DNA of 64,000 nucleotides from Candidatus Saccharimonadota bacterium (GCA_016191105.1 JACPPH010000008.1:2667-66666); one strand, 5' to 3'. Shown: positions 5,424 to 24,355, counted from the stretch's first letter. Numbers and translations are program-made. Notes: generated by a model from the letters alone, not told the origin.

Positions 5424-5497
5424 GTGGCTTGCATTCAGGTATATTATCTGATTATAATAGGTGGTAATAACCTTGGTGGCAAGGATAAGGAGGATAT

Positions 5498-7541: not shown

Positions 7542-7775
7542 AAGTTAAGAGCTTGTCTCATAGTTTCATTTTAGCTTAAACCTATGCTTTTTGTCCTTTT
7601 TTGGCTGCAAATCAATTCTGTTTTGTTGGCTTAGAGGTGTCTAGGTTCTCCTTATAAAAACGATTTTCGTACAAAGATTTGCTTGTTTTACTCAAAATAA
7701 CAGATTATAAAGCCGGCTCTTGTTGGGTAGTAAATACTCAGCACTGCCCCCAATTACTCTTTTTTGGCCTTTGGT

Positions 7776-8153
7776 TTAAAAGAAGCTCAGCACAAAGTTG
7801 ACAATTACAAATGCCAAAAGCGCTACGACCAAGCCCACAACTGCGTAGATGATGGTATCTTTGGCACTGCGCAAGCCATTTTCGTCGCCCTGGCTCAATA
7901 CATACTTAAGCCCGCCAATTACAATCATAATCACGGCCGCCGCCCCAATAATTATAAGTAGAGTGTTGGTAACTGCAGCAATTCGGCCCGGCAGAGTGCC
8001 GCCGGGGGCACTCCCCTGAGCACAACTCGCCCCAGCAGATACGCCGCCAGCTATATCGCAGCTGGCTCCTGCATAGGTGATAGCGGGAAAAGCCAAAAGT
8101 GTCGCAAAGGCCATGAGGCCTGCGGCAATGCGGTTTGAGTTAATAAATTTCAC
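7776..8153 (-). CDS. VirB2/TrbC-like pilin-type small membrane protein, paralog 1 (alternative starts 8237 or 8114)
   Basis: Signal-peptide-like N-terminus. Two C-terminal hydrophobic helices separated by the GD(E)...AK loop motif shared with the four neighbouring paralogs (…NTLLIIIGAAAVIMIVIGGLKYVLSQGDENGLRSAKDTIIYAVVGLVVALLAFVIVNFV). Confidence 0.6.
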   Translation of the reverse strand: MKFINSNRIAAGLMAFATLLAFPAITYAGASCDIAGGVSAGASCAQGSAPGGTLPGRIAAVTNTLLIIIGAAAVIMIVIGGLKYVLSQGDENGLRSAKDTIIYAVVGLVVALLAFVIVNFVLSFF

Positions 8154-8172
8154 TTGAGTTGAGAGCTCCTTA

Positions 8173-8538
8173 TTACGAGAACTGCCCAAGCACGAAGTTA
8201 ACAATGGCATAGGCCAGCAAGGCCACCACAATACCAATTATCGAGAAGAGGATGGTATCTTTGGCGCCTTTGACTTGCTTTTCGTCGCCTTGACTAAAAA
8301 TGTAGCGAAAGCCACCCACAATAAGCATAATAACTGCCACCACACCAATTACTATCAAGAGGGTATTGGTAATCTGTGCAACCTGGGTGGTTAGCGGGAC
8401 GCTAGAAAGCGAACCTTGAGCCGAGTTAGCGCCCTGTGAGACATCGGGGTTGGCAGCATGCGCGGCTCCGGCAATTGCTACGCCCAAGCCCGCGCCTACG
8501 GTTGCAGTAGTGATTTTAATTCGCGATGAAAGTGACAT
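8173..8538 (-). CDS. VirB2/TrbC-like pilin-type small membrane protein, paralog 2
   Basis: Same architecture and motif. AAGGAG lies 10 nt before the chosen ATG. Confidence 0.65.
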   Translation of the reverse strand: MSLSSRIKITTATVGAGLGVAIAGAAHAANPDVSQGANSAQGSLSSVPLTTQVAQITNTLLIVIGVVAVIMLIVGGFRYIFSQGDEKQVKGAKDTILFSIIGIVVALLAYAIVNFVLGQFS

Positions 8539-8628
8539 ATGAGTGCTTCTCCTTATTAACATAACAATTATACATTGGTTATTGGTAATTATATCGCCGG
8601 CCGTAAAATAAGTAAAGACCGGGGGTGG

Positions 8629-8934
8629 CTACCTAAAAACACCAATTACAAAATTAACTATCAAGAACGATAGCAGGGCAATTACTAGCCCTACAACTGA
8701 ATAAATTATGGCCTCTTTGGCCTGGCGCAAGCGGTTTTCGTCGCCACCGCTGGTTACATAGGTAAAGCCACCATAAATTATGCCAATCACGGCAGCAGCA
8801 CCAACCAAGAAGAGCAGAGTGTTGGTAACGGTTGAGATTATGTCGCCAAAGCCTTTTTGCGGCAAAGCATTTGGCAATGATGGAGCTGCCGCTAGTATTT
8901 TTGTTGCTAGCTTAAACATATCTGTATTATACAT
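8629..8934 (-). CDS. VirB2/TrbC-like pilin-type small membrane protein, paralog 3
   Basis: 101 aa. Contains TLLFLVGAAAVIGIIYGGFTYVTSGGDENRLRQAKEAIIYSVVGLVIALLSFLIVNFV. Confidence 0.65.
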   Translation of the reverse strand: MYNTDMFKLATKILAAAPSLPNALPQKGFGDIISTVTNTLLFLVGAAAVIGIIYGGFTYVTSGGDENRLRQAKEAIIYSVVGLVIALLSFLIVNFVIGVFR

Positions 8935-8959
8935 TAAATATAGTTAGGCCAAAGCAGTC

Positions 8960-9247
8960 TTAAAAAAATTTACTAAAGATAAAGTTAAGAATACTACCAA
9001 CTGCCATAGCAGCAACAAGCCCGCCCACAGATGCCGCCAAAGCTCTTTTGGCAAAAAGCAAACGCCTTTCGTCGCCACCAGATGTTACATACATAAAGCC
9101 GGCGATTATTATAAAGATAACCGACACCACCCCAACAATAAAAAGCAATATAACTACCGCATTATTTAATAGGCCGGCCACAGCACCCTGCCAATTGCCA
9201 GCGTTGATTTGGTCTTGAATGGGTTGGGTGAAAAGAGTAAAGTTCAT
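8960..9247 (-). CDS. VirB2/TrbC-like pilin-type small membrane protein, paralog 4
   Basis: 95 aa with the same two-helix topology. Its ATG overlaps the upstream stop in an ATGA arrangement. Confidence 0.6.
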   Translation of the reverse strand: MNFTLFTQPIQDQINAGNWQGAVAGLLNNAVVILLFIVGVVSVIFIIIAGFMYVTSGGDERRLLFAKRALAASVGGLVAAMAVGSILNFIFSKFF

Positions 9248-9795
9248 GGGAATAGCCCTGTCAATTTAACAATTGCATAGGCGCTTATTAATAGCCCCAG
9301 ACTAATAGCTACCTGTATGAGGTGTTTTTTGGCATTTGCTATTTGATCGGGACTACCACCCGTAGCAATAATAGTGATTATATACCAAAGTATTAGCACA
9401 ACAGCTACGGCTCCAAAAATACCAACTAAATAGTCTGATATCTGATTAATCACATCGTAAAGACTGCCTTGGTTGCACAGCCAGCCCCTTGTAACTACAC
9501 TACAATCTTGGTTGGCATCGAGCTTACTACGGCCAAAAGTCTTCGAGTTAAGAGGCTCAATTTGCTGGCCTGCAAGACAAGTGACATTGCCAGTCTTTTG
9601 ATCAGTAATTGGTGCTCCTGCATCAGAACCATCGGCATTTACACACTTAAAAAGTTGTTGATTTTGATTAGTTGGCTCGGCACCTTGACCGGTCTGTGGC
9701 TCTGCCGCTAGTGCAACAGTCGTACTTGCTAGACTAAGGGCTAGGGCAATAAGCCCAAGTGCAATAAAAGGTATAGAATTTGTATATCTGCGCAT
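9244..9795 (-). CDS. Secreted Cys-containing protein with a pilin-like C-terminal two-helix module, paralog 5
   Basis: Signal peptide, a ~110-aa extracellular region with 4 Cys, then the shared TM-GGSPD-TM module. ATG taken at 9795; the ORF track starts at a TTG at 9804. Confidence 0.6.
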   Translation of the reverse strand: MRRYTNSIPFIALGLIALALSLASTTVALAAEPQTGQGAEPTNQNQQLFKCVNADGSDAGAPITDQKTGNVTCLAGQQIEPLNSKTFGRSKLDANQDCSVVTRGWLCNQGSLYDVINQISDYLVGIFGAVAVVLILWYIITIIATGGSPDQIANAKKHLIQVAISLGLLISAYAIVKLTGLFP

Positions 9796-9842
9796 TGTAA
9801 ACAAGCTTTATTTTACCCCTGTAATCATATATCATAAGGGCA

Positions 9843-12089
9843 ATGTTAGCAAAAACAAAGTTGTTAGCTCTTTGCTGCTTTGCTCTTGTGTTTGGGGCGG
9901 TACTTTTTTTTGTTACCAACGGCCAGAATGCGAGAGCTGAGCTTCCAAAAACTGGATCTTGCGGGCCCACCACTTTAAGCACTATTGGTGCCTGGAAAAC
10001 CCCTTTTAGTATAGACTGCGAAAATTCAAACCCATCACTTGGCGGTGGCGATGCCAAAGAAGACTGGTTCTACAATCCAGACTTAAGTAATGTTCTGGGT
10101 AACTACATAGTGTTTAGTCGCAAAGACACAGCCGCCGTAATGGTTATACAGGCCACAGGACCAAATGCCTACACTCGTTTTTGTTTTAAGTCTCCGGGTG
10201 ATGTTAAGGATGGTATGGCGTTTAACTACGACAACGGCGGTGGATTTTGTGGCGCTATAGAGAGTTTTGACCCCGCGGGTAGCGACAGCACCAATGCCGG
10301 TACGGGTTTTTGTTCAGTAGTAAACAACAAGGATGGTTGTGATTATTATAGCGGCAATGATGGGCCATGGTCTTCAAGTCCCCCCAGAAAATACAGTGGT
10401 AAGGTTGTGGATCGCTCAGCTGACATCTCCAAAGCCCAACAGAGCGAATCTGGAGATGAATGTAACAACCGAGATCAAGCCGGGGCTTTGAGTTTTGTAT
10501 TGTGTCCATTGCTCAAAAGTATCACTGAGTCGGTCGACAAAATAGTAGGGCCTGGTGGGCAACTGCAAAACTTGCTCAAAGTCGAACCACTAGCGTTTCC
10601 TGGCAGTAGTGGTGGCATTAATTTGCAAGCATCTACGCAGAATATAGTTTACCTGGCCGATGGTTTGTATGTGCTTTTGTTTATTGTACTGCTATTTGCC
10701 AATGCTTTTGCTATTGGCATAGACAACTACACCGTTAAAAAGACTTTGCCACGGCTGATTGCGGCAGTGGTATTAACTCAGTTTGCATATATAATTAGTG
10801 CACTTATGATTGACGCTGGCAACATACTTGGTTCTTTGTTGCCCAACTTAATATCGTCGGTTGGAGGAATTGATTTTACCACAGCTATTAATAATCTACT
10901 AGGCACCGGTAGCCAACCCAATCTAAACGGCTTACTGAGTTCGCTTGGAGCATTCTTCTTGGTGTTAGTAGCAGCAATTGCCATTTTGGTGGTACTGATA
11001 ATTGCCATGGTCTATATGATATTCCGAAATCTGTTTATTTATATACTAGTTATTGCCGCGCCCATAGCCTTTGCTGCCATGGTGCTGCCAGGCACTCAAA
11101 AGTACTTTAAGCTGTGGGGAGCCAACTTTATTAAGCTCATATTAATGTTTCCTATAATAACCTCTATACTGGCGGTGGCTTCGGTGCTTTCGGCTGCATT
11201 GGCGCCAATTAATTCCTTACTGGCCGCCCTAATTCCAGTGGTAGCCATAGCATTGATACCCAAAACCTTTAAGTGGAGTGGCGATATTATGGAATTCACA
11301 GCCGGTGCTGTGGCAGGCTATCTTGGAGGGAAGGCCAGCGCCGGCAGGAAGCAAGTGGGTGAGCAGTCCGATAGGCTAGCCGAATCTAGGCGTAACAAAA
11401 TTGCTACATCCAAATTTGGCGATACTCGGCTCGGGAGGTTTGCTTCTGGATCTGGATTTGGTAGTTTAGCAGGAACTCGCAAAAGCAAAGTAAAGCATGC
11501 TTCGAGAGTCGCTGCTGCCCAGTCTGAGGCCGATAAATATGCCAGCCTTTTGTATAGTCGGGAAAAAGCTAAACACCCAGTAGTCAAGGGCTCCAAAAAC
11601 TACGACAAACAAAAGGAGGCTCGGGAAAAAGCTTTGCTAGATCTTTATGATAATTCTAACAGGGCTACACAGTCTAGTTTATTGAGATTGGCCGGTAAAA
11701 GTGGCGACGACAAAGTGGTGTCTTACGCCAAAGGGAAAGATCCAAAATTTGTAGAAGGTGTAATGAACCAAAGCTGGTCGGACTTCGATGCTGTGCCGCA
11801 ACTCAGACCTGGTTTTGATGCCAAGGATCTTAACCCAGAAAAAATTGCAAACTCATCTGGTGGTTCCCAAAAATCAATTATTGAAAAGCATGGCAGCGAT
11901 CTATCAGCAGCAACATTGACAGGTTTGGTTTCGAACGACAGCATCCGAACCAAGCTTGATCCCGCTGTTATTGATTTGCTTAAAGATATTGCCGCTAACA
12001 CCAATACTACCGGAAAGGCGCCCACGAATATTGACCCTGCCGTTAGAACCAAAGTAAATGCTGCCTTAATGGATAAAAACTTACTGTAG
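9843..12089 (+). CDS. T4SS VirB6/TrbL-like polytopic membrane protein (PrgH/ConG-like), 748 aa
   Basis: Signal peptide, a Cys-rich extracellular N-domain, a central block of about 6 TM helices and a hydrophilic C-terminal domain. First gene of a plus-strand operon with translational coupling. Confidence 0.6.
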   Translation: MLAKTKLLALCCFALVFGAVLFFVTNGQNARAELPKTGSCGPTTLSTIGAWKTPFSIDCENSNPSLGGGDAKEDWFYNPDLSNVLGNYIVFSRKDTAAVMVIQATGPNAYTRFCFKSPGDVKDGMAFNYDNGGGFCGAIESFDPAGSDSTNAGTGFCSVVNNKDGCDYYSGNDGPWSSSPPRKYSGKVVDRSADISKAQQSESGDECNNRDQAGALSFVLCPLLKSITESVDKIVGPGGQLQNLLKVEPLAFPGSSGGINLQASTQNIVYLADGLYVLLFIVLLFANAFAIGIDNYTVKKTLPRLIAAVVLTQFAYIISALMIDAGNILGSLLPNLISSVGGIDFTTAINNLLGTGSQPNLNGLLSSLGAFFLVLVAAIAILVVLIIAMVYMIFRNLFIYILVIAAPIAFAAMVLPGTQKYFKLWGANFIKLILMFPIITSILAVASVLSAALAPINSLLAALIPVVAIALIPKTFKWSGDIMEFTAGAVAGYLGGKASAGRKQVGEQSDRLAESRRNKIATSKFGDTRLGRFASGSGFGSLAGTRKSKVKHASRVAAAQSEADKYASLLYSREKAKHPVVKGSKNYDKQKEAREKALLDLYDNSNRATQSSLLRLAGKSGDDKVVSYAKGKDPKFVEGVMNQSWSDFDAVPQLRPGFDAKDLNPEKIANSSGGSQKSIIEKHGSDLSAATLTGLVSNDSIRTKLDPAVIDLLKDIAANTNTTGKAPTNIDPAVRTKVNAALMDKNLL

Positions 12090-12095
12090 GTAAAA

Positions 12096-13103
12096 ATGGG
12101 ACAATACAAAGTACCACAAAACGTAGAGGCCGAAGATAAAATTCTTGGCCCGCTAACTATAAAGCAATTTATATATGTAATAATTGCGCTTATGTGGGGC
12201 TTTATTGCCATCCGTTTGTTGGCTCCATTCAACCTAATAGTAGGAATTATTTTGGCGCTACCAGTCTCTGGCACACTTTTGGCGCTTGGCCTCATTCAAC
12301 GCGAAGGTGTGAGCTTCGAAAACTACTTTTTGGCCTTTATTCGCTTTAATCTTTACCCGCGCAAACGCCAATGGCAAAAAGACGCCAACCCCGACGTGAT
12401 TAAGAACGAACCCAAAAAAGCCGTTGTGCCAGAACTACACAAAAGTCTTAACCAGGGCCAGCTAAAGCAATTGGCGTTTATTGTGGATACGCGTGGTAAC
12501 TACAAAGACCCCAACTTGCAGCTGCCCGACAGCAGCAATATAGCCACTCAAATGAGCTCGAGAGTGGTTGGCCCACAGGCCGCTCAGGGCGAAATTCCAA
12601 ATGTTCAGCCGCTTATGCCAAGCGCGCCCCAAGCAGCTGCTCAAGTATCGGCTCCGCAGGCTACACCAGCCCAAACGGCCCAAGCACAACCAGGCGTGGC
12701 ACCAATTGCGACTCAGCCTGCACCGCAGCCGCCGGCTGCCACCGCCCAAGACGATGTGCTAGACGAAACTAGCACTCAATCGACCGATGTTGGTACTTTG
12801 TTGCAAAACGTAGAGGTTAATTTGCGCAATCGCACGGTCGCTAAAATGAAACAATCGCTAACTGCGGCACCAAAAACCGCCAAGACTGCGCCCACCCTCA
12901 CTAGTGATAGAGCCAATGCTCAAGTTGCCGCCGCCACAGCAAGCCAAGCTACTGCTGGCGGCACCCTGTCTGGCAATCAAGTTGCCACCGCTTTGGCCAG
13001 ATTGAGCCAGCAAAGTGACCACCTATCGGTGCAGCGCTTGGCGGCTCAGGCCGACAAGGCCATTCCGCTTAGCGAAGGCCAAGTGGTACAAGTTAGAGGT
13101 TAG
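12096..13103 (+). CDS. PrgI/VirB3-like T4SS membrane protein with an Ala/Gln/Pro-rich C-terminal extension
   Basis: N-terminus YKVPQNVEAEDKILGPLTIKQFIYV followed by a TM hairpin and ...ENYFLAFIRFNLYPRKRQW, matching the PrgI family pattern. C-terminal low-complexity tail. Confidence 0.65.
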   Translation: MGQYKVPQNVEAEDKILGPLTIKQFIYVIIALMWGFIAIRLLAPFNLIVGIILALPVSGTLLALGLIQREGVSFENYFLAFIRFNLYPRKRQWQKDANPDVIKNEPKKAVVPELHKSLNQGQLKQLAFIVDTRGNYKDPNLQLPDSSNIATQMSSRVVGPQAAQGEIPNVQPLMPSAPQAAAQVSAPQATPAQTAQAQPGVAPIATQPAPQPPAATAQDDVLDETSTQSTDVGTLLQNVEVNLRNRTVAKMKQSLTAAPKTAKTAPTLTSDRANAQVAAATASQATAGGTLSGNQVATALARLSQQSDHLSVQRLAAQADKAIPLSEGQVVQVRG

Positions 13104-13189: not shown

Positions 13190-14074
13190 ATGGCAAAGAA
13201 TAATCAGCCCCAATTAACCCCCGCCCAAACCGAATACTTTGGTTCGATTACCCCACCCAAAAAAACCAAAAACCAGCGTCAGAGCACCCAGTCGCATTTG
13301 CAGTTTTCGGAGATCAAAGACGGCATAGTAGTAATGCGCGACGGTAGTTTACGCATGGTGGTTATGTGTAGCCCCACTAACTTCGACCTCAAAAGTCCGG
13401 CCGAACGCGATGCCATTGAGTATGCTTATCAGGGCTTTCTAAATGGTTTGCACTTTCCAATTCAAATTGTTATTCAGTCGCGCAAAGTTGATCTCGACAA
13501 CTATCTCGAGAACCTCGAGAACTTGCAGTCTAACCAGCCAAACGGGCTGCTGGCTGGACTTATGGACGACTACATATTCAATATTCGGGCTCTGCTCGAA
13601 GAGGTAAATATTATGGACAAAAAGTTCTATGTGGTTGTGCCATACTATACCCAGGTAGTAAGCAAAGAAAACGTCTTTACTGGCATTAAAAAACTGATTG
13701 CTGGTGAGCAACAGGTTACCCAAACCAGCAAACAATATGATCAGCGCCGGCGCGACCTTATACAGCGTACCAACCTGGTGGCCGGTGGCCTAGCCCAAAT
13801 CGGGATTCGTTCAGTCGTTTTGAACACCCAAGAAATTATTGAGCTGTATTACAACTCCTACAACATCGACGAAGCTCAAAACCAAGCCTTGGGCAGTGTG
13901 GATCAGGTAAATACCCCGGTCGTAATGCGCGAAGGCGGCTTAGCTGAGCCACACGGCAACGAACAACCAGAACCCGAGCCCGAAGACTTGTTTGCCGCCG
14001 AGCAACGGCGAGCCCAGTCTGGTTCGTACGGCAGCCAATCGGCTCACCAAGCCAAGAGCGGAGAGCGCAGGTGA
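13190..14074 (+). CDS. T4SS-associated protein with a VirB4 N-terminal-like region
   Basis: EIKDGIVVMRDGSLRMVVMCSPTNFDLKSPAERDAIEYAYQGFLNGLHFPIQIVIQSRKVDL resembles the extreme N-terminal region of VirB4/TrbE/PrgJ ATPases. Its stop overlaps the VirB4 start codon (ATGA). Confidence 0.5.
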   Translation: MAKNNQPQLTPAQTEYFGSITPPKKTKNQRQSTQSHLQFSEIKDGIVVMRDGSLRMVVMCSPTNFDLKSPAERDAIEYAYQGFLNGLHFPIQIVIQSRKVDLDNYLENLENLQSNQPNGLLAGLMDDYIFNIRALLEEVNIMDKKFYVVVPYYTQVVSKENVFTGIKKLIAGEQQVTQTSKQYDQRRRDLIQRTNLVAGGLAQIGIRSVVLNTQEIIELYYNSYNIDEAQNQALGSVDQVNTPVVMREGGLAEPHGNEQPEPEPEDLFAAEQRRAQSGSYGSQSAHQAKSGERR

Positions 14075-15963
14075 TGGCCAGAAAACCCAAGGTTGACCCG
14101 GCGGTTCAGGCTCAAATTGATCGCCAAACGGCCATGCAGTCTGAAGCTCAAAAAATCTATCGCGAGGGTGTCGTTACTCTGCGCGATATGATTGCGCCAA
14201 GTTCTTTTGAGGTCGAGAGCAGCTACATAAAAATTGGCAAGCGCTATGCCCGCACTCTGTTTATATACGCTTACCCACGTTCGTTATTCACGGGCTGGCT
14301 AAGCCCAATTATTAATCTCGATGAAGTAATTGACATATCAATGTCAATCGAGCCGGTAGAATCAAGGGTGGTACTAGATAATTTGCGCAAGAAAGTTACC
14401 CAAATGGAGGCCACCTATAGCATAAACCAGGAGAAGGGTAAGGTGCGCGACCCCGGGCTAGAGGCTGCCCTACAAGATGCCGAAGAATTGCGCGACAAGC
14501 TGCAGGTGGGCGAAGACCGGTTCTTTCGCCTAGGCTTATATATAACTATTTACGGCAAAGACCTAAAAGAGCTTAATGAAGTTGGCCGGCGCATTGAAAG
14601 CGTGTTTGGTACAGCACTAATTTACACCAAACCCACCACCATTCAGATGGAACAAGGCTTTACCACTACTTTGCCGATGGGCCAAGATCAAATTCAGGTA
14701 CGCCGCAACATGGATACGGGTGCTATTAGCACCAGTTTTCCATTTACCACCGCCAACCTAAGTAACGACGAGGGTATATTGTATGGCATTAACCGCCACA
14801 ACAATGGCTTGGTGTTGTTTGATCGCTTCTCTCTAGAAAATGCCAATATGGTGGTGTTTGCCAAGTCGGGTGCTGGTAAGAGTTTTGCGGTTAAGCTGGA
14901 GTGCTTGCGTTCACTCATGCTGGGGTCCGAAGTAATTGTGATCGACCCCGAAAATGAATACAGGACCTTGTGTGATGCCGTGGGCGGTAGCTTCTTGCAC
15001 CTAAGCCTGGCCAGCTCTACGCGCATTAATCCATTTGATATCCCCACCACAATTGATAGTGAAGAGGCCGATAATGCCCTGCGAGCCAATATAATTATGT
15101 TGCATGGGCTGTTGCGACTAATGACCGGCGAGATGAGCCCAGCCGAAGAAGCCGATCTCGACGTGGCACTGATCAATACCTATGCTCAAAAGGGCATAAC
15201 TAACGACCCCCTAACCCATAAGGCTGAGCCGCCAATTATGCAAGATCTGTATAACACCCTTAATCAGATGGGCGGTAACGGACCTGCCCTGGCGGCTCGC
15301 CTGCGGCGTTACACCGAGGGTACTTTCTCGGGTATTTTTAGTCAGCAGAGCAATGTTGACCTAAGCTCTAACTTCGTGGTGTTTAATATTCGCGATCTCG
15401 AGGACGAGCTCCGACCAATCGGCATGTATATTACATTGAACTATATTTGGAACCGCGTAAAAACCGAGAGGAAGAAGCGCATTTTGGTAGTCGACGAAGC
15501 CTGGCAGCTCATGCAATATCAAGACTCGGCTATGTTTCTATTTAGCATTGCCAAGCGAGCGCGCAAGTATTACTTGGGCTTAACCACCATCTCGCAAGAT
15601 GTTGAAGACTTCTTGAGCACTCGGCTTGGTCGGGCAATTGTGAATAACTCAAGCTTACAGTTACTGCTTAAGCAAAACCCGGCTGCGGTTGATATTGTTA
15701 GCCAGACCTTTAAGCTAACCAGCGAAGAAGCCAAGCTGTTGAGCCAATTTCCGGTTGGCGAGGGCTTATTCTTTGCTGGCTTGAGCCACATTATTTTGCG
15801 AATTCTGGCCTTCCCGGGCGAGGAGCAGCTGATTACCACCAACCCAAAGGATATTTTGGATAGCTTGGAGCAAGCCAAGGCTCAGGTTCAGGGCGCATCG
15901 GCGGGCGCCCAAGCTGCAGAGGCTCAAAATCTGGCACAGCAAAATGCAACTGGAGCAGAATAA
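14071..15963 (+). CDS. virB4: Type IV secretion ATPase VirB4 (TrbE/CagE/PrgJ family)
   Basis: Conserved IAPSSFEVESSYIKIGKRYARTLFIYAYPRSLFTGWLSPIINLD region. Walker A is FAKSGAGKSF and Walker B is ILVVDEAWQL. Confidence 0.9.
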   Translation: MMARKPKVDPAVQAQIDRQTAMQSEAQKIYREGVVTLRDMIAPSSFEVESSYIKIGKRYARTLFIYAYPRSLFTGWLSPIINLDEVIDISMSIEPVESRVVLDNLRKKVTQMEATYSINQEKGKVRDPGLEAALQDAEELRDKLQVGEDRFFRLGLYITIYGKDLKELNEVGRRIESVFGTALIYTKPTTIQMEQGFTTTLPMGQDQIQVRRNMDTGAISTSFPFTTANLSNDEGILYGINRHNNGLVLFDRFSLENANMVVFAKSGAGKSFAVKLECLRSLMLGSEVIVIDPENEYRTLCDAVGGSFLHLSLASSTRINPFDIPTTIDSEEADNALRANIIMLHGLLRLMTGEMSPAEEADLDVALINTYAQKGITNDPLTHKAEPPIMQDLYNTLNQMGGNGPALAARLRRYTEGTFSGIFSQQSNVDLSSNFVVFNIRDLEDELRPIGMYITLNYIWNRVKTERKKRILVVDEAWQLMQYQDSAMFLFSIAKRARKYYLGLTTISQDVEDFLSTRLGRAIVNNSSLQLLLKQNPAAVDIVSQTFKLTSEEAKLLSQFPVGEGLFFAGLSHIILRILAFPGEEQLITTNPKDILDSLEQAKAQVQGASAGAQAAEAQNLAQQNATGAE

Positions 15964-15990: not shown

Positions 15991-18900
15991 ATGGCTCAGG
16001 GTACAATTACGCCACCAGACGACAATATTGATGACAACTTAATACACGACAAGAATCTCAGCAATTCTGAGTGGTCAGATTTTGTTGACAACCACTCCAC
16101 TTCCGATGGCTCTATCCGTGCTACTGGTCGGGAGGATGCTGCCGACCTACCAACTAGCAATCGTAGCCGGGGACCAGCAGTAGATGAATCAGGGCATATT
16201 ACCGCCGCTGATAATGTCGGCCAAAACAGACAGCAAGGTGGTGGTAGCAGTATGGACATGGCAAAAAAAGTCGCCAAACAAGCCGCCGGTGCAGGTGGTG
16301 GTGGCAGCTCTGCCGCAACCAAAGCCCTGGGCGCCGCAAGCAGCGGTAAGGATGGTGATAAGCCCGAGACTGCAAAAGACAAGGCTGCCGATAAAGCAGC
16401 CGACGCTGCCCAGATAGCCGAAGCAGCAGCCACCATTGAGAGCCCAACTGCCTGGCTAACTCTGGCTAAGCAGGCTAAAAAGCACTGGAGAGCCCTGGCG
16501 CTGGTAAGCATAATTGCACTCTTGCCAGTGTTTATATTGATATTCATTGTATTCTATGCCGCCGCTAACCCGTTTGAGTTCATGAAGGCGGCTATTACCA
16601 ATAAGGCCTTAGGGCGATTTGTAGTCCAGTCAGCCGATGCAATAGGCCTGCCAGGCGCAGCTCAAGTAAGAACCGTACTGGAAAGAGCCGGCTTAGTTAT
16701 AAAGATAGAGCACAGTAATACCGCAATAGCAGCACCCAGCCCCACAACCAAGCCAGACCCCGGCAGCATAGATGACATTCTGGCCCGCATAGACTGGAAA
16801 AAAGCACAATGGCAGTATGGAAACGATATTACCTGTAAATACCGTTTTACATTTGCGCCATTTGTAAATTACGATGGTCAAACTATTAACGAAATCGACA
16901 AGGCTTACGACAAAACGACCGGCAAAGAAGTGCCGCCAGACCAGGCTACAGAAGCTGTAAACACTTGTTTTATGAACAGCTACCCAATGTTTAATATGTC
17001 AACCCGTAACCCCGCAGCAAGAAGTGTTAATAAGTTTTCAGATGCCTTTCTGGCCTACTCAACCGACAAAAGTGAGCTCTATAACAAACCACAATCTGAG
17101 GTAAATAAGGCTCTGCTCGAAAAAACCGTTAAACGGATCGAGGAAAAGCAAGACTCGGCTCCCAAGAGTACCGAACAAAAAGTAACAGACTTCTCCAACA
17201 GAGTATATTCTGAGATTCAGCAGGGCAAAGACCCCGAGGCGCTAGATTATGACGCAATTGCGGCCAGTGTTGGATTGACGTTCCCAAACAACGATCAAGA
17301 CCCCCAGCAAGTTACTGATTCTATGTGTACTTATTATCAAGTATTCACTGCCGAGAATAATGTAGTGAAAGGTATATATAGCCGCCGCGATGCGGCAGTT
17401 CGTAACGCCTTAAAGTTTTTGTCGCTAGCTGGTTCTGGTGCCATGTACCAAAACAGCAACAAAGAGATCAATTATACTGCTGCATCTATAGCCAATTGGG
17501 CAGACGGCGCGGGCTATAGCTTATCGGTAGGCAACGGCAACCAGGGCATTCAAGCCAATGCTGAGTCTATCCACAATAGAGCCTACATTATCAAGCCAGA
17601 AGAAGCTATCCGAATCGGATTGGCGCTAAGACCAGCCTGTGCCTATGCCAACTTTGGCTTTCCGGTACCGATTATACAACAAGTTATAAAAAACGTGGGT
17701 CAAACAGCCGTGTTTAATTTGTACAAAACTTTTAGGGCTACTGTTGTGGCTGAGTCTAGCGGGATCTTTGAGATAGGTAACCCAAACAACTTTGGTTTAA
17801 AAGACATACTGATTGGCAGTTTTAGGCTGGCCGGCGCAGCCTCGGTTACAGGTACAGAGGCAGGTCCACAAAATCTTAACCGACAAGCCATGGGCGTGCA
17901 ACAACTTACCTCAGATTACCTGCGTACGGTTGGTGGTCGGTTCTTGACCGAACAAGAACAGGCCGAGCTCGCTGTTAGAGTAGAAGACAATGCACGACAA
18001 AACGAACAAAATAAAAGCTTTTTGGCCAGAATATTCGACACTGCTAGCCCGCGTTCAATTGCAAGCCAGCTGGCCAGCCGAAACACCAGCTGGCGTGATA
18101 CTGCTACTTACATGGCCTCAACAACTGCATCGCTGGTAAATATACCTAAACTTTTTACAGACACATCTAGCCTGGTGGCTTATGTGGCCACAGGCCAAAA
18201 AAATACAGCTTTTGCAGCCAGCGATGATATTGCCAATTACTTCAAGGTAGACCTAGCTGGATTCAGCAGTAATGAACTAAAAAGTACCAATCTTCTAGAC
18301 AATGCCCGCGCAATTGAAAAGCTAAAAAAAGATATTAGCGACCCTAATGACATTCGCACTAAACAAATGCAATATTATGACGCATGCTTTAAGAAAGATA
18401 TTCCAAACCCTATTCTCTTTACCCGTATTCCTGAAGACCCCAAGGATATTAGCAACACCGATCCTGCCATTCAAAAGAAATATCTTTACATAAAAGACGG
18501 TTTTAAAATAGGCGGGGACGGCAATCAGCTTACTTACAATCAAGATGTGGATTCGGACTTTTTTAAGGCCTATACTTGTGAGACTACGATGACCAACAGC
18601 AACCCGCTAAACATGCCAAATATAAATCTAGATTTTGCGAGAAAATATCGTTTGTATGTTTACTACAAATCACAAGTGGAGTTGCTACAAAATTTATCCA
18701 GCGATACAGCCCCGAAAGGGTTTTATGCAGGCTCTAGCAAGGGCGGTGCGGGCAGCGGGCAGCGTAATCCCGGCGGCTTTATTTGGCCTATAGGAGGAAA
18801 GACAGTATTTAGCAGATGTGGCAATGGTCATGGTTACCAAGCTGTAGATATTGCTTATGTTGGCAATCTCAAGCCAGACATATACGCGGTAGCCGATGGC

Positions 18901-19203
18901 GAAGTGGTGCTGGCCGATAACAGCAACAGCAGCTCTGGCTATGGTAACTACCTGATCATTAAGCAGAATGACGGCCTATACACCCTCTACGCCCACAATA
19001 GCGAGGTTACGGTAGCCAAAGGAGACCGTGTGAGCCAAGGTGACGTGGTGGCTATTGGTGGCTCGAGTGGCGATTCGAGCGGCCCCCACCTACACTTCGA
19101 AGTCCGTACCGAAGACATAAATGGCCCCAAGCAAAACCCGGGTGACTACTTGCCAGATACACCAGACGGGCAAAATACTCAAACTTACTGCGAGAGTAAT
19201 TAA
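15991..19203 (+). CDS. Large membrane-anchored cell-wall hydrolase with a C-terminal M23 (LytM) peptidase domain (VirB1/PrgK-like role)
   Basis: One TM segment near residue 175. The C-terminus carries M23 motifs (HGYQAVDIAY...YGNYLIIKQNDGLYTLYAHN...GPHLHFEV). Confidence 0.75.
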   Translation: MAQGTITPPDDNIDDNLIHDKNLSNSEWSDFVDNHSTSDGSIRATGREDAADLPTSNRSRGPAVDESGHITAADNVGQNRQQGGGSSMDMAKKVAKQAAGAGGGGSSAATKALGAASSGKDGDKPETAKDKAADKAADAAQIAEAAATIESPTAWLTLAKQAKKHWRALALVSIIALLPVFILIFIVFYAAANPFEFMKAAITNKALGRFVVQSADAIGLPGAAQVRTVLERAGLVIKIEHSNTAIAAPSPTTKPDPGSIDDILARIDWKKAQWQYGNDITCKYRFTFAPFVNYDGQTINEIDKAYDKTTGKEVPPDQATEAVNTCFMNSYPMFNMSTRNPAARSVNKFSDAFLAYSTDKSELYNKPQSEVNKALLEKTVKRIEEKQDSAPKSTEQKVTDFSNRVYSEIQQGKDPEALDYDAIAASVGLTFPNNDQDPQQVTDSMCTYYQVFTAENNVVKGIYSRRDAAVRNALKFLSLAGSGAMYQNSNKEINYTAASIANWADGAGYSLSVGNGNQGIQANAESIHNRAYIIKPEEAIRIGLALRPACAYANFGFPVPIIQQVIKNVGQTAVFNLYKTFRATVVAESSGIFEIGNPNNFGLKDILIGSFRLAGAASVTGTEAGPQNLNRQAMGVQQLTSDYLRTVGGRFLTEQEQAELAVRVEDNARQNEQNKSFLARIFDTASPRSIASQLASRNTSWRDTATYMASTTASLVNIPKLFTDTSSLVAYVATGQKNTAFAASDDIANYFKVDLAGFSSNELKSTNLLDNARAIEKLKKDISDPNDIRTKQMQYYDACFKKDIPNPILFTRIPEDPKDISNTDPAIQKKYLYIKDGFKIGGDGNQLTYNQDVDSDFFKAYTCETTMTNSNPLNMPNINLDFARKYRLYVYYKSQVELLQNLSSDTAPKGFYAGSSKGGAGSGQRNPGGFIWPIGGKTVFSRCGNGHGYQAVDIAYVGNLKPDIYAVADGEVVLADNSNSSSGYGNYLIIKQNDGLYTLYAHNSEVTVAKGDRVSQGDVVAIGGSSGDSSGPHLHFEVRTEDINGPKQNPGDYLPDTPDGQNTQTYCESN

Positions 19204-20198
19204 TGAACAGGCGGATTACCATTACTATCATAAGCATTGTTGCGGTGCTAGCTCTAGCTGTCATAATAGTTATGCTTATATTAGTAACCCGGCAGCCTAG
19301 CACATTCAGCCTCAATGCTCAGATTGCCGACAGTGGTCGCATCCGCTTCGCTCAAGCTACCGCAAAAGGGCTGGTTTATACTAAATCCAACAACCTGTAT
19401 CTTATTAAAGACGGCACGCCTAGCTTGCTTGGCGCCCTGCCGGAATTTGATAGCTTTCAGGTTAATCAAGATGCAACTTTTGGAGCTGTCAAAAACAATT
19501 CCACTGTTCTAATTTACAACCTGTCCTCCTGGAAAGTTGTAGCTCAGTTTGAAGCTAAGTTCTTCAGCTGGATTGACAGCAATACATACCTGTATGGCAC
19601 TTTTGTTACGCCACCAAAAATTGCTGGTGGTGCCGAAAATTTATCTCAAAATCTTACTGTTAAAGATACCTCGGGTAGGCTTATAAATACCTATACTACA
19701 CCATTCTCGCCGATTGGCTTGCTACTAAGTAGCCCCACCAGCCTATATATATCAGCCAGCGGAAGTAAAGGCCTGCTTGAACTACAAATTTACAGGCTCG
19801 ACAGAACAAACGGCAGCCTGCAGACGATTCAACAGTTGCCAAATTTTAGTTTTAACCAATATAATCAATATGAGGCGGCACTATTACAAACTGGATCCAA
19901 TAGCGGTCCTGTGCAGCCATTCTCAACTAACGGCCTAAAAATCACCTCGCTGTTTCAGCCCTTATCTAACGTAGTTATGGTTAGCAAAGCCAGGCTTCTG
20001 TATGTAACTAGTAGAAATAACGTTGAGCTCCATAGTTTTGACCTAACCAACAATAAAGATCAGCTAATAGGCTATATTTCGATACCTGCTAGCACTGTAG
20101 TAAGTGGGGTGTATGTGATAAATAGTAGAATGTACATTACAGCTCAAAATCAAATCTTCTTCATCGGTTTAGACCCAATAAAGGGCTTGACACAATGA
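19203..20198 (+). CDS. Bitopic membrane protein (N-terminal TM plus a beta-rich periplasmic domain), T4SS operon member
   Basis: MNRRITITIISIVAVLALAVIIVMLILV is the N-terminal TM anchor. Confidence 0.5.
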   Translation: MNRRITITIISIVAVLALAVIIVMLILVTRQPSTFSLNAQIADSGRIRFAQATAKGLVYTKSNNLYLIKDGTPSLLGALPEFDSFQVNQDATFGAVKNNSTVLIYNLSSWKVVAQFEAKFFSWIDSNTYLYGTFVTPPKIAGGAENLSQNLTVKDTSGRLINTYTTPFSPIGLLLSSPTSLYISASGSKGLLELQIYRLDRTNGSLQTIQQLPNFSFNQYNQYEAALLQTGSNSGPVQPFSTNGLKITSLFQPLSNVVMVSKARLLYVTSRNNVELHSFDLTNNKDQLIGYISIPASTVVSGVYVINSRMYITAQNQIFFIGLDPIKGLTQ

Positions 20199-20310
20199 AC
20201 TATAGAGCGGCTGCCGTAGTAGATGATGCTCCGAGGGTAATTGAGGTGGGTTGCGCAAAGCCTGTTGCGCTTTGCGCAGCTACTCTTTTATCCATCCAGA
20301 GGCTCTTGCA

Positions 20311-23744: not shown

Positions 23745-24355
23745 GAAGGTGGCTGATTGTGCTGGGCATACTGCTAACTATAGCTGTGGCGGGCGGGGCT
23801 TTGGCAGTTTATAGCTTTAACCGATCTGGCAAGTTTCGGGTGGTTGGCGGCTCTCCAAGCAACAAAAGCACCAATGTGCCGCCAGAGAACACGATTACAC
23901 TTGTGTTCTCTCAAGACCTCGACACCAACCAAGCCCAAACCTTTTTACAAACATCGCCCAGCCAGCTATTTGTAATGGAGTTGCAAAAAAATAAGTTAGT
24001 GCTAACACCGGCCAAGCCTTTGCAAGAAAAATCTCAATATTTGATTTCAATAAACAATATACGATCGACTCAGGGCCAGCAGACCAGCACTAGTATTTTA
24101 TTTACAACTGGAGTTAATAATTCGCCAAGAGCACAATTTATTAGGCTTTTACCATTCAGTGGCAGTGACTTTAATATATTCTATAACGAAAATTTAGACG
24201 GGTTCACGGTTCAAATATCGACCAAGTCGATGGACCAAGCCAAAGCCCAGGCTCTGCAGTACTTTCGAGACAACAATGTAGACCCTAACAAGCAAAGAAT
24301 TGATTTTCAGCAGCTGAGATACCTGCAGGGCAAAGGTGCTCCACCGCCCAACTAA
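23741..24355 (+). CDS. Bitopic membrane protein with an Ig-like (SbsA/Big-type) domain
   Basis: N-terminal TM, then VVGGSPSNKSTNVPPENTITLVFSQDLD, typical of the start of a bacterial Ig-like domain. ATGA coupling with the upstream gene. Confidence 0.45.
   Translation: MRRWLIVLGILLTIAVAGGALAVYSFNRSGKFRVVGGSPSNKSTNVPPENTITLVFSQDLDTNQAQTFLQTSPSQLFVMELQKNKLVLTPAKPLQEKSQYLISINNIRSTQGQQTSTSILFTTGVNNSPRAQFIRLLPFSGSDFNIFYNENLDGFTVQISTKSMDQAKAQALQYFRDNNVDPNKQRIDFQQLRYLQGKGAPPPN

What the first reader, a model, noticed from the sequence alone, without database searches (positions are those of the whole stretch)
7776..9804. Five tandem, translationally coupled paralogs of a VirB2-like two-helix pilin module
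All five minus-strand ORFs share a C-terminal helix-loop-helix unit: a hydrophobic helix, then (S/T)(Q/G)GD(E)xxxxxAK, then a second hydrophobic helix ending IVNFV. N-terminal regions vary from about 30 aa to a ~110-aa Cys-containing ectodomain. This looks like a diversified pilin/adhesin repertoire for the adjacent T4SS, for example major and minor pilins or host-range variants.
Basis: seen in the sequence. Interest (0 to 1): 0.55.

Follow-up and report, generated by a model that had tools for sequence, protein, structure and literature searches.

The report
Saccharibacterial type IV secretion pilin array
Five neighbouring small genes encode diverged copies of a VirB2-like pilin beside the type IV secretion genes of a Saccharibacteria (TM7) genome; the arrangement is real but was already described for this bacterial group, where the matching gene array is essential for growth on the host bacterium.

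Summary
Five minus-strand genes (7776-9795) share a C-terminal helix, charged loop, helix module. All five reach the gathering score of Pfam PF18895 (T4SS_pilin), and one also passes PF04956 (TrbC/VirB2). They are transcribed divergently from a monoderm-type T4SS operon: VirB6-like, PrgI/VirB3, TraC-like, VirB4 and two cell-wall hydrolases. The locus lies next to recF-dnaN-dnaA in a Saccharibacteria genome.

The array matches the SEML1_0014-0019 pilin array of Ca. Southlakia epibionticum in architecture and flanking genes. Each of those genes scored essential in Tn-seq (Wang 2023). A 2025 survey catalogued 441 such arrays of 2-11 pilin genes in Patescibacteria. The finding is therefore a further example of a published kind.

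Two stated details are overstated:
- Only P5/P4 overlap (ATGA). The other gaps are 25, 90 and 19 nt.
- The exact IVNFV ending occurs in three of the five.

Modest additions from this work:
- Related arrays have 3-7 copies with a recurring polarity. A long, fast-diverging first gene with a Cys pair comes first, then short genes without signal peptides, then conserved distal genes with Shine-Dalgarno sites and signal peptides.
- The first two gene types are fused in several relatives.
- 37 of 91 P5 homologues carry 2-4 pilin modules in one polypeptide.

Together these favour co-assembling, specialised subunits over interchangeable variants. No pilus has been demonstrated.

The parts
9244..9795 (-). 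P5: first gene of the array, 183 aa. Sec-type signal peptide (about residues 1-30), an ectodomain of about 80 aa with 4 Cys, then the pilin module (residues about 113-180).
   Evidence: PF18895 at 50.7 bits. Gene call of 183 aa on the source contig. The Cys pair C98/C107 (DCSVVTRGWLC) is invariant in homologues, while the rest of the ectodomain has no relatives beyond two close ones. NCBI names it hypothetical protein HYX70_03900.
8960..9247 (-). P4: 95-aa pilin paralogue with no signal peptide. Its ATG overlaps the P5 stop codon (ATGA).
   Evidence: PF18895 at 26.6 bits, exactly the gathering score; PF04956 at 19.8 bits. BLASTP to P3 gives 7e-16. Orthologues are fused to the P5-type gene in L003, L005 and L062 and in P0124-P0126.
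8629..8934 (-). P3: 101-aa pilin paralogue with a short N-terminus and no clear signal peptide.
   Evidence: PF18895 at 47.1 bits; PF04956 at 24.4 bits. Hydropathy analysis.
8173..8538 (-). P2: 121-aa pilin paralogue. AAGGAG lies 9 nt before the ATG, and the signal peptide ends AHA|AN. It is the most conserved paralogue and a candidate major pilin.
   Evidence: PF18895 at 46.8 bits and PF04956 at 28.2 bits, above the 27.9 gathering score. 77% identical in L002. AF2 model with pLDDT of 90 or more across the hairpin: H49-80, loop 81-85, H86-120. 425 homologues, some named 'pilin' by NCBI; this protein is HYX70_03885.
7776..8153 (-). P1: 125-aa pilin paralogue with a GTG start 12 nt after AAGGAG. 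The signal peptide ends TYA|GA, and the mature N-terminus carries a Cys pair (C32, C44).
   Evidence: PF18895 at 44.2 bits. Gene call of 125 aa. 56% identical to P2, E = 2e-33.
8588..8616 (-). Promoter-like site (TTTACT-17-TATAAT, 10 of 12 matches) in the 90-nt P3-P2 gap. It may be an internal promoter for P2-P1.
   Evidence: Best consensus match in 7400-10100. This is a consensus match only; function is not shown.
9796..9842 (.). 47-nt divergent intergenic region between the P5 start and the VirB6-like start.
   Evidence: Read from the sequence. A 9-of-12 promoter-like match on the minus strand at 9852-9824 overlaps the start of the VirB6-like gene.
9843..12089 (+). Extended VirB6/TrbL-like polytopic membrane protein (748 aa), the presumed assembly platform for the pilins.
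   Evidence: Precomputed PF19590 TrbL_3. Weak PF04610 TrbL match (E = 0.007) and NF046089 CD3337/EF1877 match (E = 1e-5).
12096..13103 (+). PrgI family (VirB3-like) protein, 335 aa.
   Evidence: PF12666 at 58 bits.
13190..14074 (+). TraC-like protein, 294 aa.
   Evidence: Precomputed PF26593. No hit in my own hmmscan.
14071..15963 (+). VirB4-family ATPase, 630 aa.
   Evidence: PF19044 P-loop_TraG at 93 bits, plus AAA_10 and CagE_TrbE_VirB. 85-60% identical to Saccharibacteria genomes in GTDB representatives.
15991..19203 (+). 1070-aa protein with a C-terminal M23 peptidase domain (cell-wall hydrolase, VirB1-like role).
   Evidence: PF01551 at 86.6 bits.
19203..24355 (+). Remainder of the operon: a 331-aa ORF, an 824-aa protein with Amidase_2, a 340-aa ORF and a 204-aa Big_5 protein.
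   Evidence: PF01510 at 56.4 bits and PF13205 at 41 bits. The two unnamed ORFs have no Pfam hit.

Best explanation
The five genes are the VirB2-like pilin array of the chromosomal, origin-proximal type IV secretion system that is conserved across Saccharibacteria (TM7). By gene order and flanking genes it corresponds to the essential SEML1_0014-0019 array of Ca. Southlakia epibionticum.

What is shown here: family membership, adjacency to the T4SS, conservation of the array and its flanking gene order across Saccharibacteria, and the two-helix hairpin prediction.

Inferred mechanism, by analogy with VirB2/TraA and the recent PrgF work:
- Each protein inserts into the cytoplasmic membrane as a two-helix hairpin, with the short charged loop (S-x-G-D-E...A-K) in the cytoplasm and both termini outside. 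P1, P2 and P5 would insert through Sec signal peptides. The short P3 and P4 would insert without one.
- Subunits are then extracted by the VirB4/VirB6-like machine and stacked on the VirB6-like platform. This forms a pilus or conduit across the cell wall towards the host bacterium, with the charged loops lining the lumen.

My further inference is that the paralogues are specialised, co-assembling subunits rather than alternatives:
- P2 and P1 are the abundant shaft subunits. They are conserved, led by Shine-Dalgarno sites, possibly have their own promoter, and carry signal peptides.
- P5 and P4 act as a 1:1 pair. They are translationally coupled here and fused in relatives. The fast-evolving, disulfide-bearing ectodomain of P5 would be exposed as a tip or surface contact element.
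- P3 is another low-abundance subunit.
For: Family and fold:
- All five proteins reach the PF18895 gathering score, and P2 also passes PF04956. NCBIfam NF045849, a pilin-like conjugal transfer protein family, gives sub-threshold hits to all five.
- The AF2 model of P2 is a confident helix-loop-helix with a 5-residue loop.

Context:
- The array is divergent from a VirB6-like/PrgI/TraC-like/VirB4/hydrolase operon.
- recF-dnaN-dnaA, yidC and mnmE lie immediately beyond it.
- No coupling protein or relaxase was found among the ORFs scanned.

Taxon and conservation:
- VirB4 is 60-85% identical to 80 Saccharibacteria loci.
- Loci whose flank includes the whole array carry 3-7 tandem pilin genes in the same divergent position.
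- The order P5-P4-P3-P2-P1 is collinear in L002 and L004, and in L005 apart from a P5-P4 fusion.

Literature:
- Tables S1 and S2 list SEML1_0014-0019; the rows read give PF18895 for 0014-0016 and the name 'pilin' for 0019. Each of the six is classed GD/ES/ES. They lie divergent from VirB6-like SEML1_0013 and are followed by Hsp20, ComFC and tRNA-Ser. The window has the same three genes in the same order.
- 441 VirB2 arrays of 2-11 genes have been reported in CPR genomes (PMC12102498).

Specialisation of the paralogues:
- AAGGAG occurs only before P2 and P1, and mostly before distal genes in related arrays.
- The best promoter-like match of the region lies in the P3-P2 gap.
- P2 is 77% identical in L002, against 33% for P5.
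- P5-type and P4-type modules are fused in L003, L005 and L062 and in P0124-P0126.
- 37 of 91 P5 homologues have 2-4 modules in one polypeptide.
Against: - No pilus or any structure made by these proteins has been seen in any Saccharibacterium, and the function of the T4SS is stated to be completely unknown (PMC11665869).
- Foldseek against the PDB gave no significant match and no conjugative pilin among the top 50. A profile search of PDB sequences found none either. Fold-level membership therefore rests on a generic hairpin.
- P4 sits exactly at the Pfam threshold.
- Signal-peptide and topology calls are my own heuristic, not a trained predictor.
- The promoter and Shine-Dalgarno arguments for 'major' versus 'minor' subunits rest on consensus matches only.
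- Essentiality of each gene in the Tn-seq could partly reflect polar effects and the few insertion sites in such small genes (11-15 per gene).
- All envelope-exposed T4SS parts evolve fast in this locus, so the divergence of P5 is not specific evidence for host recognition.
Confidence: 0.8

Rival explanations
1. The paralogues are interchangeable alternatives. Each can build a homopolymeric pilus, and the repertoire gives antigenic variation or a host-strain range, as proposed for the VirB2 paralogue families of Anaplasma and Bartonella.
For: - This is the reading offered in the literature for CPR arrays (PMC12102498).
- Copy number varies from 3 to 7 among related genomes, mostly through duplication of the P1/P2 type.
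- Paralogues are highly diverged (22-61% in the module), and P5 has almost no recognisable relatives outside its module.
Against: - In S. epibionticum every one of the six array genes scored essential, which argues against redundancy.
- Array architecture is conserved across distant genomes: a long first gene, short genes without signal peptides, then distal genes with Shine-Dalgarno sites and signal peptides.
- Different module types are covalently fused in many relatives, which forces co-assembly.
- No long near-identical DNA repeats or silent-cassette signature exist. The longest shared stretch is 77 nt at 65-70% identity.
- The distal paralogues are among the better-conserved proteins of the locus.
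Confidence: 0.2
2. The proteins are VirB2-family members but do not form an extracellular pilus. They stay in or near the membrane as subunits of the translocation channel, or of a short stalk spanning the thin cell wall.
For: - No filament has been attributed to this T4SS.
- Monoderm T4SSs were long thought to lack pili.
- The related NCBIfam family is called only 'pilin-like'.
- Saccharibacteria attach directly to the host surface, so a long pilus may be unnecessary (inference).
Against: - PrgF, from the same broad class of monoderm systems, now has labelling evidence for extrusion from the membrane.
- Sec signal peptides and an 80-aa disulfide-bearing ectodomain on P5 imply exposure outside the cell.
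- The distinction between a short conduit and a pilus is one of length, not of mechanism.
Confidence: 0.3
3. They are unrelated small two-TM membrane proteins, such as holin-like proteins or transporter accessory subunits, that resemble pilins only through hydrophobic composition.
For: - Weak sub-threshold hits to many unrelated membrane families appear in the same scan.
- Some databases name homologues 'magnesium-transporting ATPase' or 'cytochrome oxidase subunit'.
- The PDB fold search is non-specific.
Against: - The curated PF18895 threshold is reached by all five, with E-values down to 2e-13, and every other family is below its cutoff except TrbC/VirB2 itself.
- A conserved charged-loop motif is shared by all copies.
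- The genes are physically linked to VirB6/VirB3/VirB4 genes in dozens of genomes.
- The odd database names are automatic labels for short hydrophobic proteins.
Confidence: 0.02

Closest known systems
SEML1_0014-0019 pilin array of Candidatus Southlakia epibionticum ML1 (Wang et al., Cell 2023, PMC10633639)
   Same: - Same class of organism (Saccharibacteria).
- Same Pfam family, PF18895.
- Same position: divergent from the VirB6-like gene of an origin-proximal T4SS cluster with PrgI, VirB4 and cell-wall hydrolases.
- Same downstream neighbours: Hsp20, ComFC and tRNA-Ser.
- Similar size pattern, including one protein of about 185 aa and one of about 100 aa.
   Different: - Five genes here against six there.
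- The window has an extra solute-binding-protein gene (6210-7541) between the array and Hsp20.
- The window has no additional non-essential outlying pilin like SEML1_0024.
- Sequences could not be compared directly because the Se proteins were not retrievable with these tools.
- Essentiality is known only for Se.
VirB2 arrays of Patescibacteria (Quinonero-Coronel et al., Microb Genom 2025, PMC12102498)
   Same: This locus fits their description: 2-11 tandem VirB2-like genes near virB4, found with PF04956 and PF18895, abundant in Saccharimonadia, highly diverged within an array, in a relaxase-less T4SS near dnaA.
   Different: Within-array identity here reaches 56% (P1 against P2), slightly above their stated maximum of 54%. 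That paper's main text contains none of the terms 'signal peptide', 'minor pilin' or 'heteropolymer', and its only uses of 'fusion/fused' concern VirB3-VirB4. The array polarity and pilin-pilin fusions seen here therefore appear not to be described there.
VirB2/TrbC/TraA conjugative pilins of diderm T4SSs (Pfam PF04956; T-pilus, F-pilus, R388 pilus)
   Same: Small size, two hydrophobic helices joined by a short charged loop, N-terminal signal peptide in three of five copies, genetic linkage to VirB3, VirB4 and VirB6 homologues, and sequence-profile similarity (P2 passes PF04956; P3 and P4 give sub-threshold hits).
   Different: - The host is a monoderm with no outer-membrane core complex and no VirB5 tip protein detected.
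- There are five paralogues rather than one gene.
- Two paralogues lack signal peptides.
- One carries an 80-aa Cys-containing ectodomain.
- Relatives have 2-4 modules fused in a single chain.
- No coupling protein or relaxase is nearby.
PrgF(B2) of Enterococcus faecalis pCF10 and the VirB2-like proteins of Gram-positive conjugative plasmids (ter Beek et al., bioRxiv 2025, 10.64898/2025.12.18.695078)
   Same: A VirB2-like two-TM protein with a charged loop (acidic residues plus a basic residue), in a monoderm T4SS of the same broad class (the MPF-FATA-related clade described in PMC12102498). It is proposed to polymerise on a VirB6-like pentamer.
   Different: PrgF is a single gene in a DNA-conjugation system with a relaxase and a coupling protein. 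Here there are five paralogues in a chromosomal system without those components. Direct sequence relatedness to PrgF was not tested.
Tandem virB2 paralogue families of Anaplasma phagocytophilum and Bartonella
   Same: Several diverged VirB2 copies in tandem beside an effector-type T4SS. They are cited as the precedent for CPR arrays.
   Different: Those are diderm intracellular pathogens of animals, where variation is interpreted as immune evasion. Here the conserved array architecture, the fusions and the per-gene essentiality in Se point to non-redundant subunits.
Mbov_0395 family pilin-like conjugal transfer protein (NCBIfam NF045849) of Mycoplasma and Firmicutes ICEs
   Same: All five proteins match the model over the whole two-helix module (E from 4.5e-10 to 4.5e-4). 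tblastn of P2 hits a gene with this annotation on a Pontibacillus plasmid.
   Different: All scores (19.8-39.1 bits) are below the curated cutoff of 40, so the proteins are not members of that equivalog. Those systems are single-copy and belong to mobile elements.

Membership tests
Pfam PF18895 T4SS_pilin | Whole-protein HMM score at or above the gathering threshold (26.6 bits) | tested here: met
   P1 44.2, P2 46.8, P3 47.1, P4 26.6 (exactly at threshold) and P5 50.7 bits. Precomputed hits on the source contig agree, with P4 marked weak.
Pfam PF04956 TrbC/VirB2 pilin | Whole-protein HMM score at or above the gathering threshold (27.9 bits) | tested here: inconclusive
   P2 scores 28.2 and passes. 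P3 (24.4) and P4 (19.8) are below threshold with E-values from 3e-5 to 9e-4. P1 and P5 give no hit. Many P2 homologues carry both PF18895 and PF04956 in precomputed annotation.
VirB2-like conjugative or T4SS pilin (functional class) | Small protein with two hydrophobic helices joined by a short charged loop | tested here: met
   Hydropathy analysis finds two C-terminal hydrophobic segments in all five. The alignment shows a conserved loop of the form S/T-x-G-D-E-x5-A-K. The AF2 model of P2 has H49-80, loop 81-85 and H86-120, with block-mean pLDDT of 88-97.
VirB2-like conjugative or T4SS pilin (functional class) | Cleavable N-terminal signal peptide preceding the mature pilin | tested here: inconclusive
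   The heuristic analysis gives a basic n-region, a hydrophobic h-region and an AxA-type site for P1 (TYA|GA), P2 (AHA|AN) and P5 (ALA|AE). P3 and P4 lack a convincing signal peptide. No trained predictor was available.
VirB2-like conjugative or T4SS pilin (functional class) | Encoded next to VirB3, VirB4 and VirB6 homologues | tested here: met
   VirB6-like, PrgI, TraC-like and VirB4 genes start 47 nt from P5 on the opposite strand. The same linkage holds in related Saccharibacteria loci.
VirB2-like conjugative or T4SS pilin (functional class) | Fold similarity to solved pilins of conjugative pili | tested here: inconclusive
   Foldseek of the P2 model against the PDB gave no match with E of 0.001 or better. 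The top hits are generic helical hairpins and include no T4SS pilin. A profile search of PDB sequences found only chance matches. A two-helix hairpin is too simple for this test to discriminate.
VirB2-like conjugative or T4SS pilin (functional class) | Polymerises into an extracellular filament, often with bound phospholipid, with the loop lining the lumen | not testable with these tools
   This needs microscopy or biochemistry. No multimer prediction was available.
NCBIfam NF045849 Mbov_0395 family pilin-like conjugal transfer protein | Score at or above the curated cutoff (40 bits) | tested here: not met
   Scores are 29.7, 39.1, 37.1, 19.8 and 29.9 bits. The proteins are related to this equivalog but are not members of it.
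Saccharibacterial essential T4SS pilin array (SEML1_0014-0019 type) | Tandem PF18895 genes divergent from the VirB6-like gene of the origin-proximal T4SS, with conserved flanking genes | tested here: met
   The arrangement is shown. dnaA, dnaN and recF lie at 24644-28482. Hsp20, ComFC-like and tRNA-Ser flank the array as in Se.
Saccharibacterial essential T4SS pilin array (SEML1_0014-0019 type) | Genes required for epibiotic growth | not testable with these tools
   This is known only for S. epibionticum by Tn-seq.

The most novel reading that the evidence does not exclude
The Saccharibacterial T4SS may build a heteropolymeric VirB2-type filament from several obligatorily co-assembling pilin species. 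This would resemble the major and minor pilin logic of type IV pili rather than the single-pilin rule of conjugative pili.

In this reading the P5-type/P4-type pair is translationally coupled here, fused into one four-TM chain in some relatives, and expanded to 2-4 concatenated modules in others. It would form a fixed-stoichiometry initiating or tip unit. Its hypervariable, disulfide-stabilised ectodomain would contact the host bacterium, taking the place of the missing VirB5. P2 and P1 would form the shaft.

Concatenated VirB2 modules are topologically compatible with this, because both termini of a VirB2 subunit lie on the outer face of the pilus.
Probability: 0.3. Interest if true: 0.65.

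Novelty: already known. Interest (0 to 1): 0.3.

Why it matters
Saccharibacteria and other Patescibacteria are ultrasmall epibionts that cannot make nucleotides, amino acids or lipids. Their T4SS is conserved across the class, is essential in the one species tested, and lacks the DNA-transfer components. What it moves, and in which direction, is an open question. The pilin array is the part of the machine most likely to touch the host cell.

This window adds another clean example but not a new phenomenon. Three things here could help the field:
- The array has a recurring internal order.
- Its first two gene types are repeatedly fused.
- Multi-module 'poly-pilins' are common among homologues of the first gene.

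Together these give a testable prediction that the paralogues co-assemble in fixed ratios rather than acting as alternatives.

Tried and rejected
1. Structural confirmation of the VirB2 fold. The AF2 model of P2 was confident for the hairpin, but Foldseek against the PDB returned only non-significant generic helical hairpins. A profile search of PDB sequences returned chance hits to MacB and cannabinoid-receptor TM helices. This neither supports nor contradicts membership.
2. The P5 ectodomain. The word-index search found only the protein itself. The exhaustive HMMER search found only two relatives that cover part of it. The AF2 model was of low confidence (pLDDT 65.7, with a small beta-rich region at about 49-81), so I did not run a fold search on it. 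No function can be assigned beyond the conserved Cys pair.
3. Silent-cassette or gene-conversion model, in the style of pilE/pilS. Rejected: all five genes are intact ORFs with their own starts, and DNA similarity between copies is at most 70% over 77 nt.
4. Mobile-element origin (ICE or plasmid). Rejected: the locus lies between housekeeping genes next to dnaA/dnaN/recF, no integrase, relaxase or coupling protein was found among the ORFs scanned, and it is syntenic across the class. tblastn of P2 against 72,556 plasmids gave only two weak partial hits.
5. The idea that pilins evolve uniquely fast. Rejected: VirB6-like, PrgI, the M23 protein and the amidase protein diverge as fast or faster, and P2 is the second most conserved protein of the locus in L002.
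6. The apparent exception in L002, where the pilins seemed to lie downstream of VirB4. It is explained by an inversion of the TraC-like/VirB4 pair. The array is still divergent from VirB6-like/PrgI.


Full report
**1. The observation**

The region 7776-9804 holds five consecutive minus-strand ORFs. I refined the gene limits using ribosome-binding sites read from the sequence, an independent gene call on the metagenomic contig that carries the identical sequence, and translation.

| Gene | Coordinates | Length | Note |
|---|---|---|---|
| P5 | 9244-9795 | 183 aa | ATG start |
| P4 | 8960-9247 | 95 aa | |
| P3 | 8629-8934 | 101 aa | |
| P2 | 8173-8538 | 121 aa | ATG 9 nt after AAGGAG |
| P1 | 7776-8153 | 125 aa | GTG 12 nt after AAGGAG |

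- The five proteins align over a C-terminal module of about 75 residues: a hydrophobic helix, a short charged loop, and a second hydrophobic helix.
- The similarity is far beyond chance. BLASTP E-values are 2e-33 to 5e-13 among P1-P4, and 1e-4 to 1e-6 for P5 against P1, P3 and P4.
- An HMM built without P5 scores P5 at 20.6 bits, against at most 8.9 bits for 1000 composition-preserving shuffles of its module.

Two details in the finding are overstated.
- The exact IVNFV ending is present in P1-P3 only. P4 has ILNFI and P5 has IVKLT, and the P5 loop (TGGSPDQIANAK) lacks the Asp-Glu.
- Only P5 and P4 overlap (ATGA). The other junctions are 25, 90 and 19 nt.
- The 90-nt P3-P2 gap holds the best sigma-70-like match of the region, TTTACT-17-TATAAT.

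**2. What the proteins are**

- All five reach the gathering score of Pfam PF18895 (T4SS_pilin), with P4 exactly at 26.6 bits. P2 also passes PF04956 (TrbC/VirB2). No other family comes near its cutoff.
- NCBIfam's Mbov_0395 'pilin-like conjugal transfer protein' model matches all five, but below its cutoff.
- Hydropathy analysis shows Sec-type signal peptides on P1, P2 and P5 and none on P3 and P4. P5 has an extracellular extension of about 80 aa with four cysteines, and P1 has a Cys pair at its mature N-terminus.
- The AlphaFold2 model of P2, built from 74 homologues, is a confident hairpin: H49-80, a five-residue loop, and H86-120.
- That shape is too generic for Foldseek. No PDB match was significant and no conjugative pilin appeared among the top hits. 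A sequence-profile search of the PDB was also empty.
- Membership therefore rests on the curated HMMs, the topology and the genomic context, not on a fold match.

**3. Surroundings**

- Forty-seven nucleotides from the P5 start, on the other strand, begins an operon. It encodes:
  - an extended VirB6/TrbL-like protein (748 aa);
  - PrgI (VirB3-like);
  - a TraC-like protein;
  - a VirB4 ATPase;
  - a 1070-aa M23 peptidase protein;
  - an 824-aa Amidase_2 protein;
  - a Big_5 protein;
  - two ORFs with no Pfam hit.
- This is a monoderm-type T4SS.
- Directly beyond the operon lie recF, dnaN and dnaA, then yidC and mnmE, so the system is chromosomal and close to the origin of replication.
- On the other side of the array lie a solute-binding protein, Hsp20, a ComFC-like protein and tRNA-Ser.
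- No coupling protein, relaxase or integrase was found among the ORFs scanned. The rest of the window is housekeeping and surface-polysaccharide genes.

**4. Organism and conservation**

- The VirB4 protein is 60-85% identical to Saccharibacteria (TM7) genomes. At least 550 candidate stretches in the species-representative collection encode a relative.
- P2 and P5 are identical to NCBI 'hypothetical proteins' HYX70_03885 and HYX70_03900 of a Candidatus Saccharibacteria MAG.
- I built an HMM from the five modules and iterated it over all six-frame ORFs of the 80 related loci. Loci whose flank includes the whole array carry 3-7 tandem pilin genes, divergent from the VirB6-like gene. The window has exactly five and no outlying copy.
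- The one apparent exception, L002, is explained by an inversion of the TraC-like/VirB4 pair.

**5. Prior knowledge**

- Wang et al. [quoted passage not shown] Southlakia epibionticum.
- Their tables list SEML1_0014-0019 as six small tandem genes of 132, 185, 103, 126, 127 and 138 aa. The rows I read give PF18895 for 0014-0016 and the name 'pilin' for 0019; reviews call the cluster six VirB2-like pilins.
- Each of the six is classed growth-defective and then essential. The array lies divergent from the VirB6-like SEML1_0013 and is followed by Hsp20, ComFC and tRNA-Ser. That flanking gene order matches the window.
- Quinonero-Coronel et al. 2025 (PMC12102498) catalogued 441 VirB2 arrays of 2-11 genes in 383 Patescibacteria assemblies, concentrated in Saccharimonadia and Microgenomatia. 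They suggested adaptation to different host strains.
- A 2025 review repeats this and speculates about a pilus conduit (PMC12857230).
- A 2025 preprint gives genetic and labelling evidence that PrgF, a VirB2-like protein of the Gram-positive plasmid pCF10, forms a pilus on the VirB6-like PrgH.

**6. What this analysis adds**

- **The array has a recurring polarity**.
  - The promoter-proximal gene is long, lacks a Shine-Dalgarno site and is the most diverged.
  - One or two short paralogues of about 90-100 aa without signal peptides follow.
  - The distal genes are P1/P2-like, about 120-140 aa with signal peptides, often preceded by AAGGAG, and the best conserved.
  - Copy-number differences arise mostly from duplication of this distal type.
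- **The P5 type and the P4 type are linked.**
  - They are separate but overlapping genes here.
  - They form a single ORF with two modules in L003, L005 and L062 and in proteins P0124-P0126. Further two-module ORFs occur in L033 and L077.
  - 37 of 91 cluster representatives homologous to P5 carry two to four pilin modules in one chain.
  - The P5 type also keeps an invariant Cys pair (C98 and C107) just before its first helix, while the rest of its ectodomain has essentially no relatives.
- **Fast divergence is not peculiar to the pilins.** In L002, the closest locus:

| Protein | Identity in L002 |
|---|---|
| VirB4 | 85% |
| P2 | 77% |
| TraC-like | 66% |
| P3 | 57% |
| M23 protein | 48% |
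| P1 | 46% |
| P4 | 45% |
| PrgI | 42% |
| VirB6-like | 40% |
| P5 | 33% |

- **DNA similarity between copies is low.** It reaches at most 70% over 77 nt, so there is no sign of recent gene conversion or silent cassettes.

**7. Mechanism**

- What is shown: family membership, adjacency to the T4SS, conservation of the array, and the hairpin prediction.
- Inferred by analogy with VirB2/TraA and PrgF:
  - Each protein inserts as a two-TM hairpin with the charged loop in the cytoplasm.
  - The VirB4/VirB6-like machine extracts the subunits.
  - The subunits polymerise into a pilus or cell-wall-spanning conduit whose lumen is lined by the loops.
- My own inference, at lower confidence (about 0.4):
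  - The paralogues are specialised and co-assemble.
  - P2 and P1 are the abundant shaft subunits.
  - P5 and P4 form a 1:1 initiating or tip unit that exposes the variable ectodomain.
- Supporting this inference are the per-gene essentiality in S. epibionticum, the conserved order and the fusions.
- Against it are the possibility of polar effects in the Tn-seq and the purely consensus-level promoter and RBS evidence.
- Rival readings remain open: interchangeable host-range or antigenic variants (about 0.2), and a membrane-embedded channel without a true pilus (about 0.3; this rival overlaps the main model rather than excluding it). The holin or unrelated-protein reading is excluded (0.02).

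**8. Verdict**

- The kind of system is already described in the literature, so the novelty of the finding as stated is low.
- The residual interest lies in the unresolved function of the Saccharibacterial T4SS, and in the fused or concatenated pilin modules, which give a concrete and testable hint of a heteropolymeric VirB2-type filament.

Noticed in passing
L003 5554-6273(-), L005 3161-3802(-), L062 3712-4488(-), L033 3038-3778(-), L077 3894-4571(-); proteins P0124-P0126, P0130, P0149 and others: Single ORFs carry two pilin modules with no stop codon between them. In addition, 37 of 91 P5 homologues in the representative library have 2-4 tandem PF18895-like modules in one polypeptide (up to 450 aa with four modules, and one 640-aa protein with three). 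The main text of the CPR T4SS survey has no mention of pilin-pilin fusions.
   Followed up: partly
window 9454-9504 (P5 residues 98-107) and the homologues in alignment A3: An invariant Cys pair (DCSVVTRGWLC) lies immediately N-terminal of the first helix of the P5-type pilin. It is conserved even where the remainder of the ectodomain is unalignable, which suggests a structural disulfide at the base of the ectodomain.
   Followed up: partly
window 24644-32046: recF, dnaN and dnaA on the minus strand, then yidC and mnmE on the plus strand. The T4SS locus abuts the probable replication origin, as reported for other CPR genomes.
   Followed up: partly
window 4144-5941: tRNA-Ser(GGA), a MauE/DoxX-like membrane protein, a ComFC-like protein (double zinc ribbon plus phosphoribosyltransferase domain) and Hsp20. 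The tRNA-Ser, ComFC and Hsp20 genes lie in the same order beside the pilin array as in S. epibionticum. A solute-binding-protein gene (6210-7541) is inserted here between Hsp20 and the array.
   Followed up: partly
L002 9096-15055: In L002, the locus with the highest VirB4 identity, the TraC-like/VirB4 gene pair is inverted relative to VirB6-like/PrgI and the hydrolase genes. This is a local rearrangement inside an otherwise conserved T4SS cluster.
   Followed up: no
L033 114-641(+), L042 815-1198(+), L061 947-1396(+), L062 1053-1553(+), L077 429-833(+): Several gut and rumen Saccharibacteria carry one extra P2-like pilin gene on the opposite strand, about 1.3-1.5 kb beyond the array. It may be equivalent to the non-essential outlying pilin SEML1_0024 of S. 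epibionticum. The window has none.
   Followed up: no
window 38983-57654: A large surface-polysaccharide cluster: epimerase, ABC-2/Wzt exporter, several GT4 glycosyltransferases, a methyltransferase-GT fusion and a Wzy_C ligase-like protein. It has lower G+C (0.38-0.44) than the rest of the window (0.45-0.53), which may indicate horizontal acquisition.
   Followed up: no
window 36814-38955 (+): A 713-aa ORF with no Pfam match at E of 0.1 or better. It lies between a nucleotidyltransferase gene and the polysaccharide cluster.
   Followed up: no
window 9796-9852: Only 47 nt separate the divergent start codons of P5 and the VirB6-like gene. The promoters of both transcription units must therefore overlap each other or the neighbouring coding sequence. 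A 9-of-12 promoter-like match for the pilin strand lies at 9852-9824.
   Followed up: no
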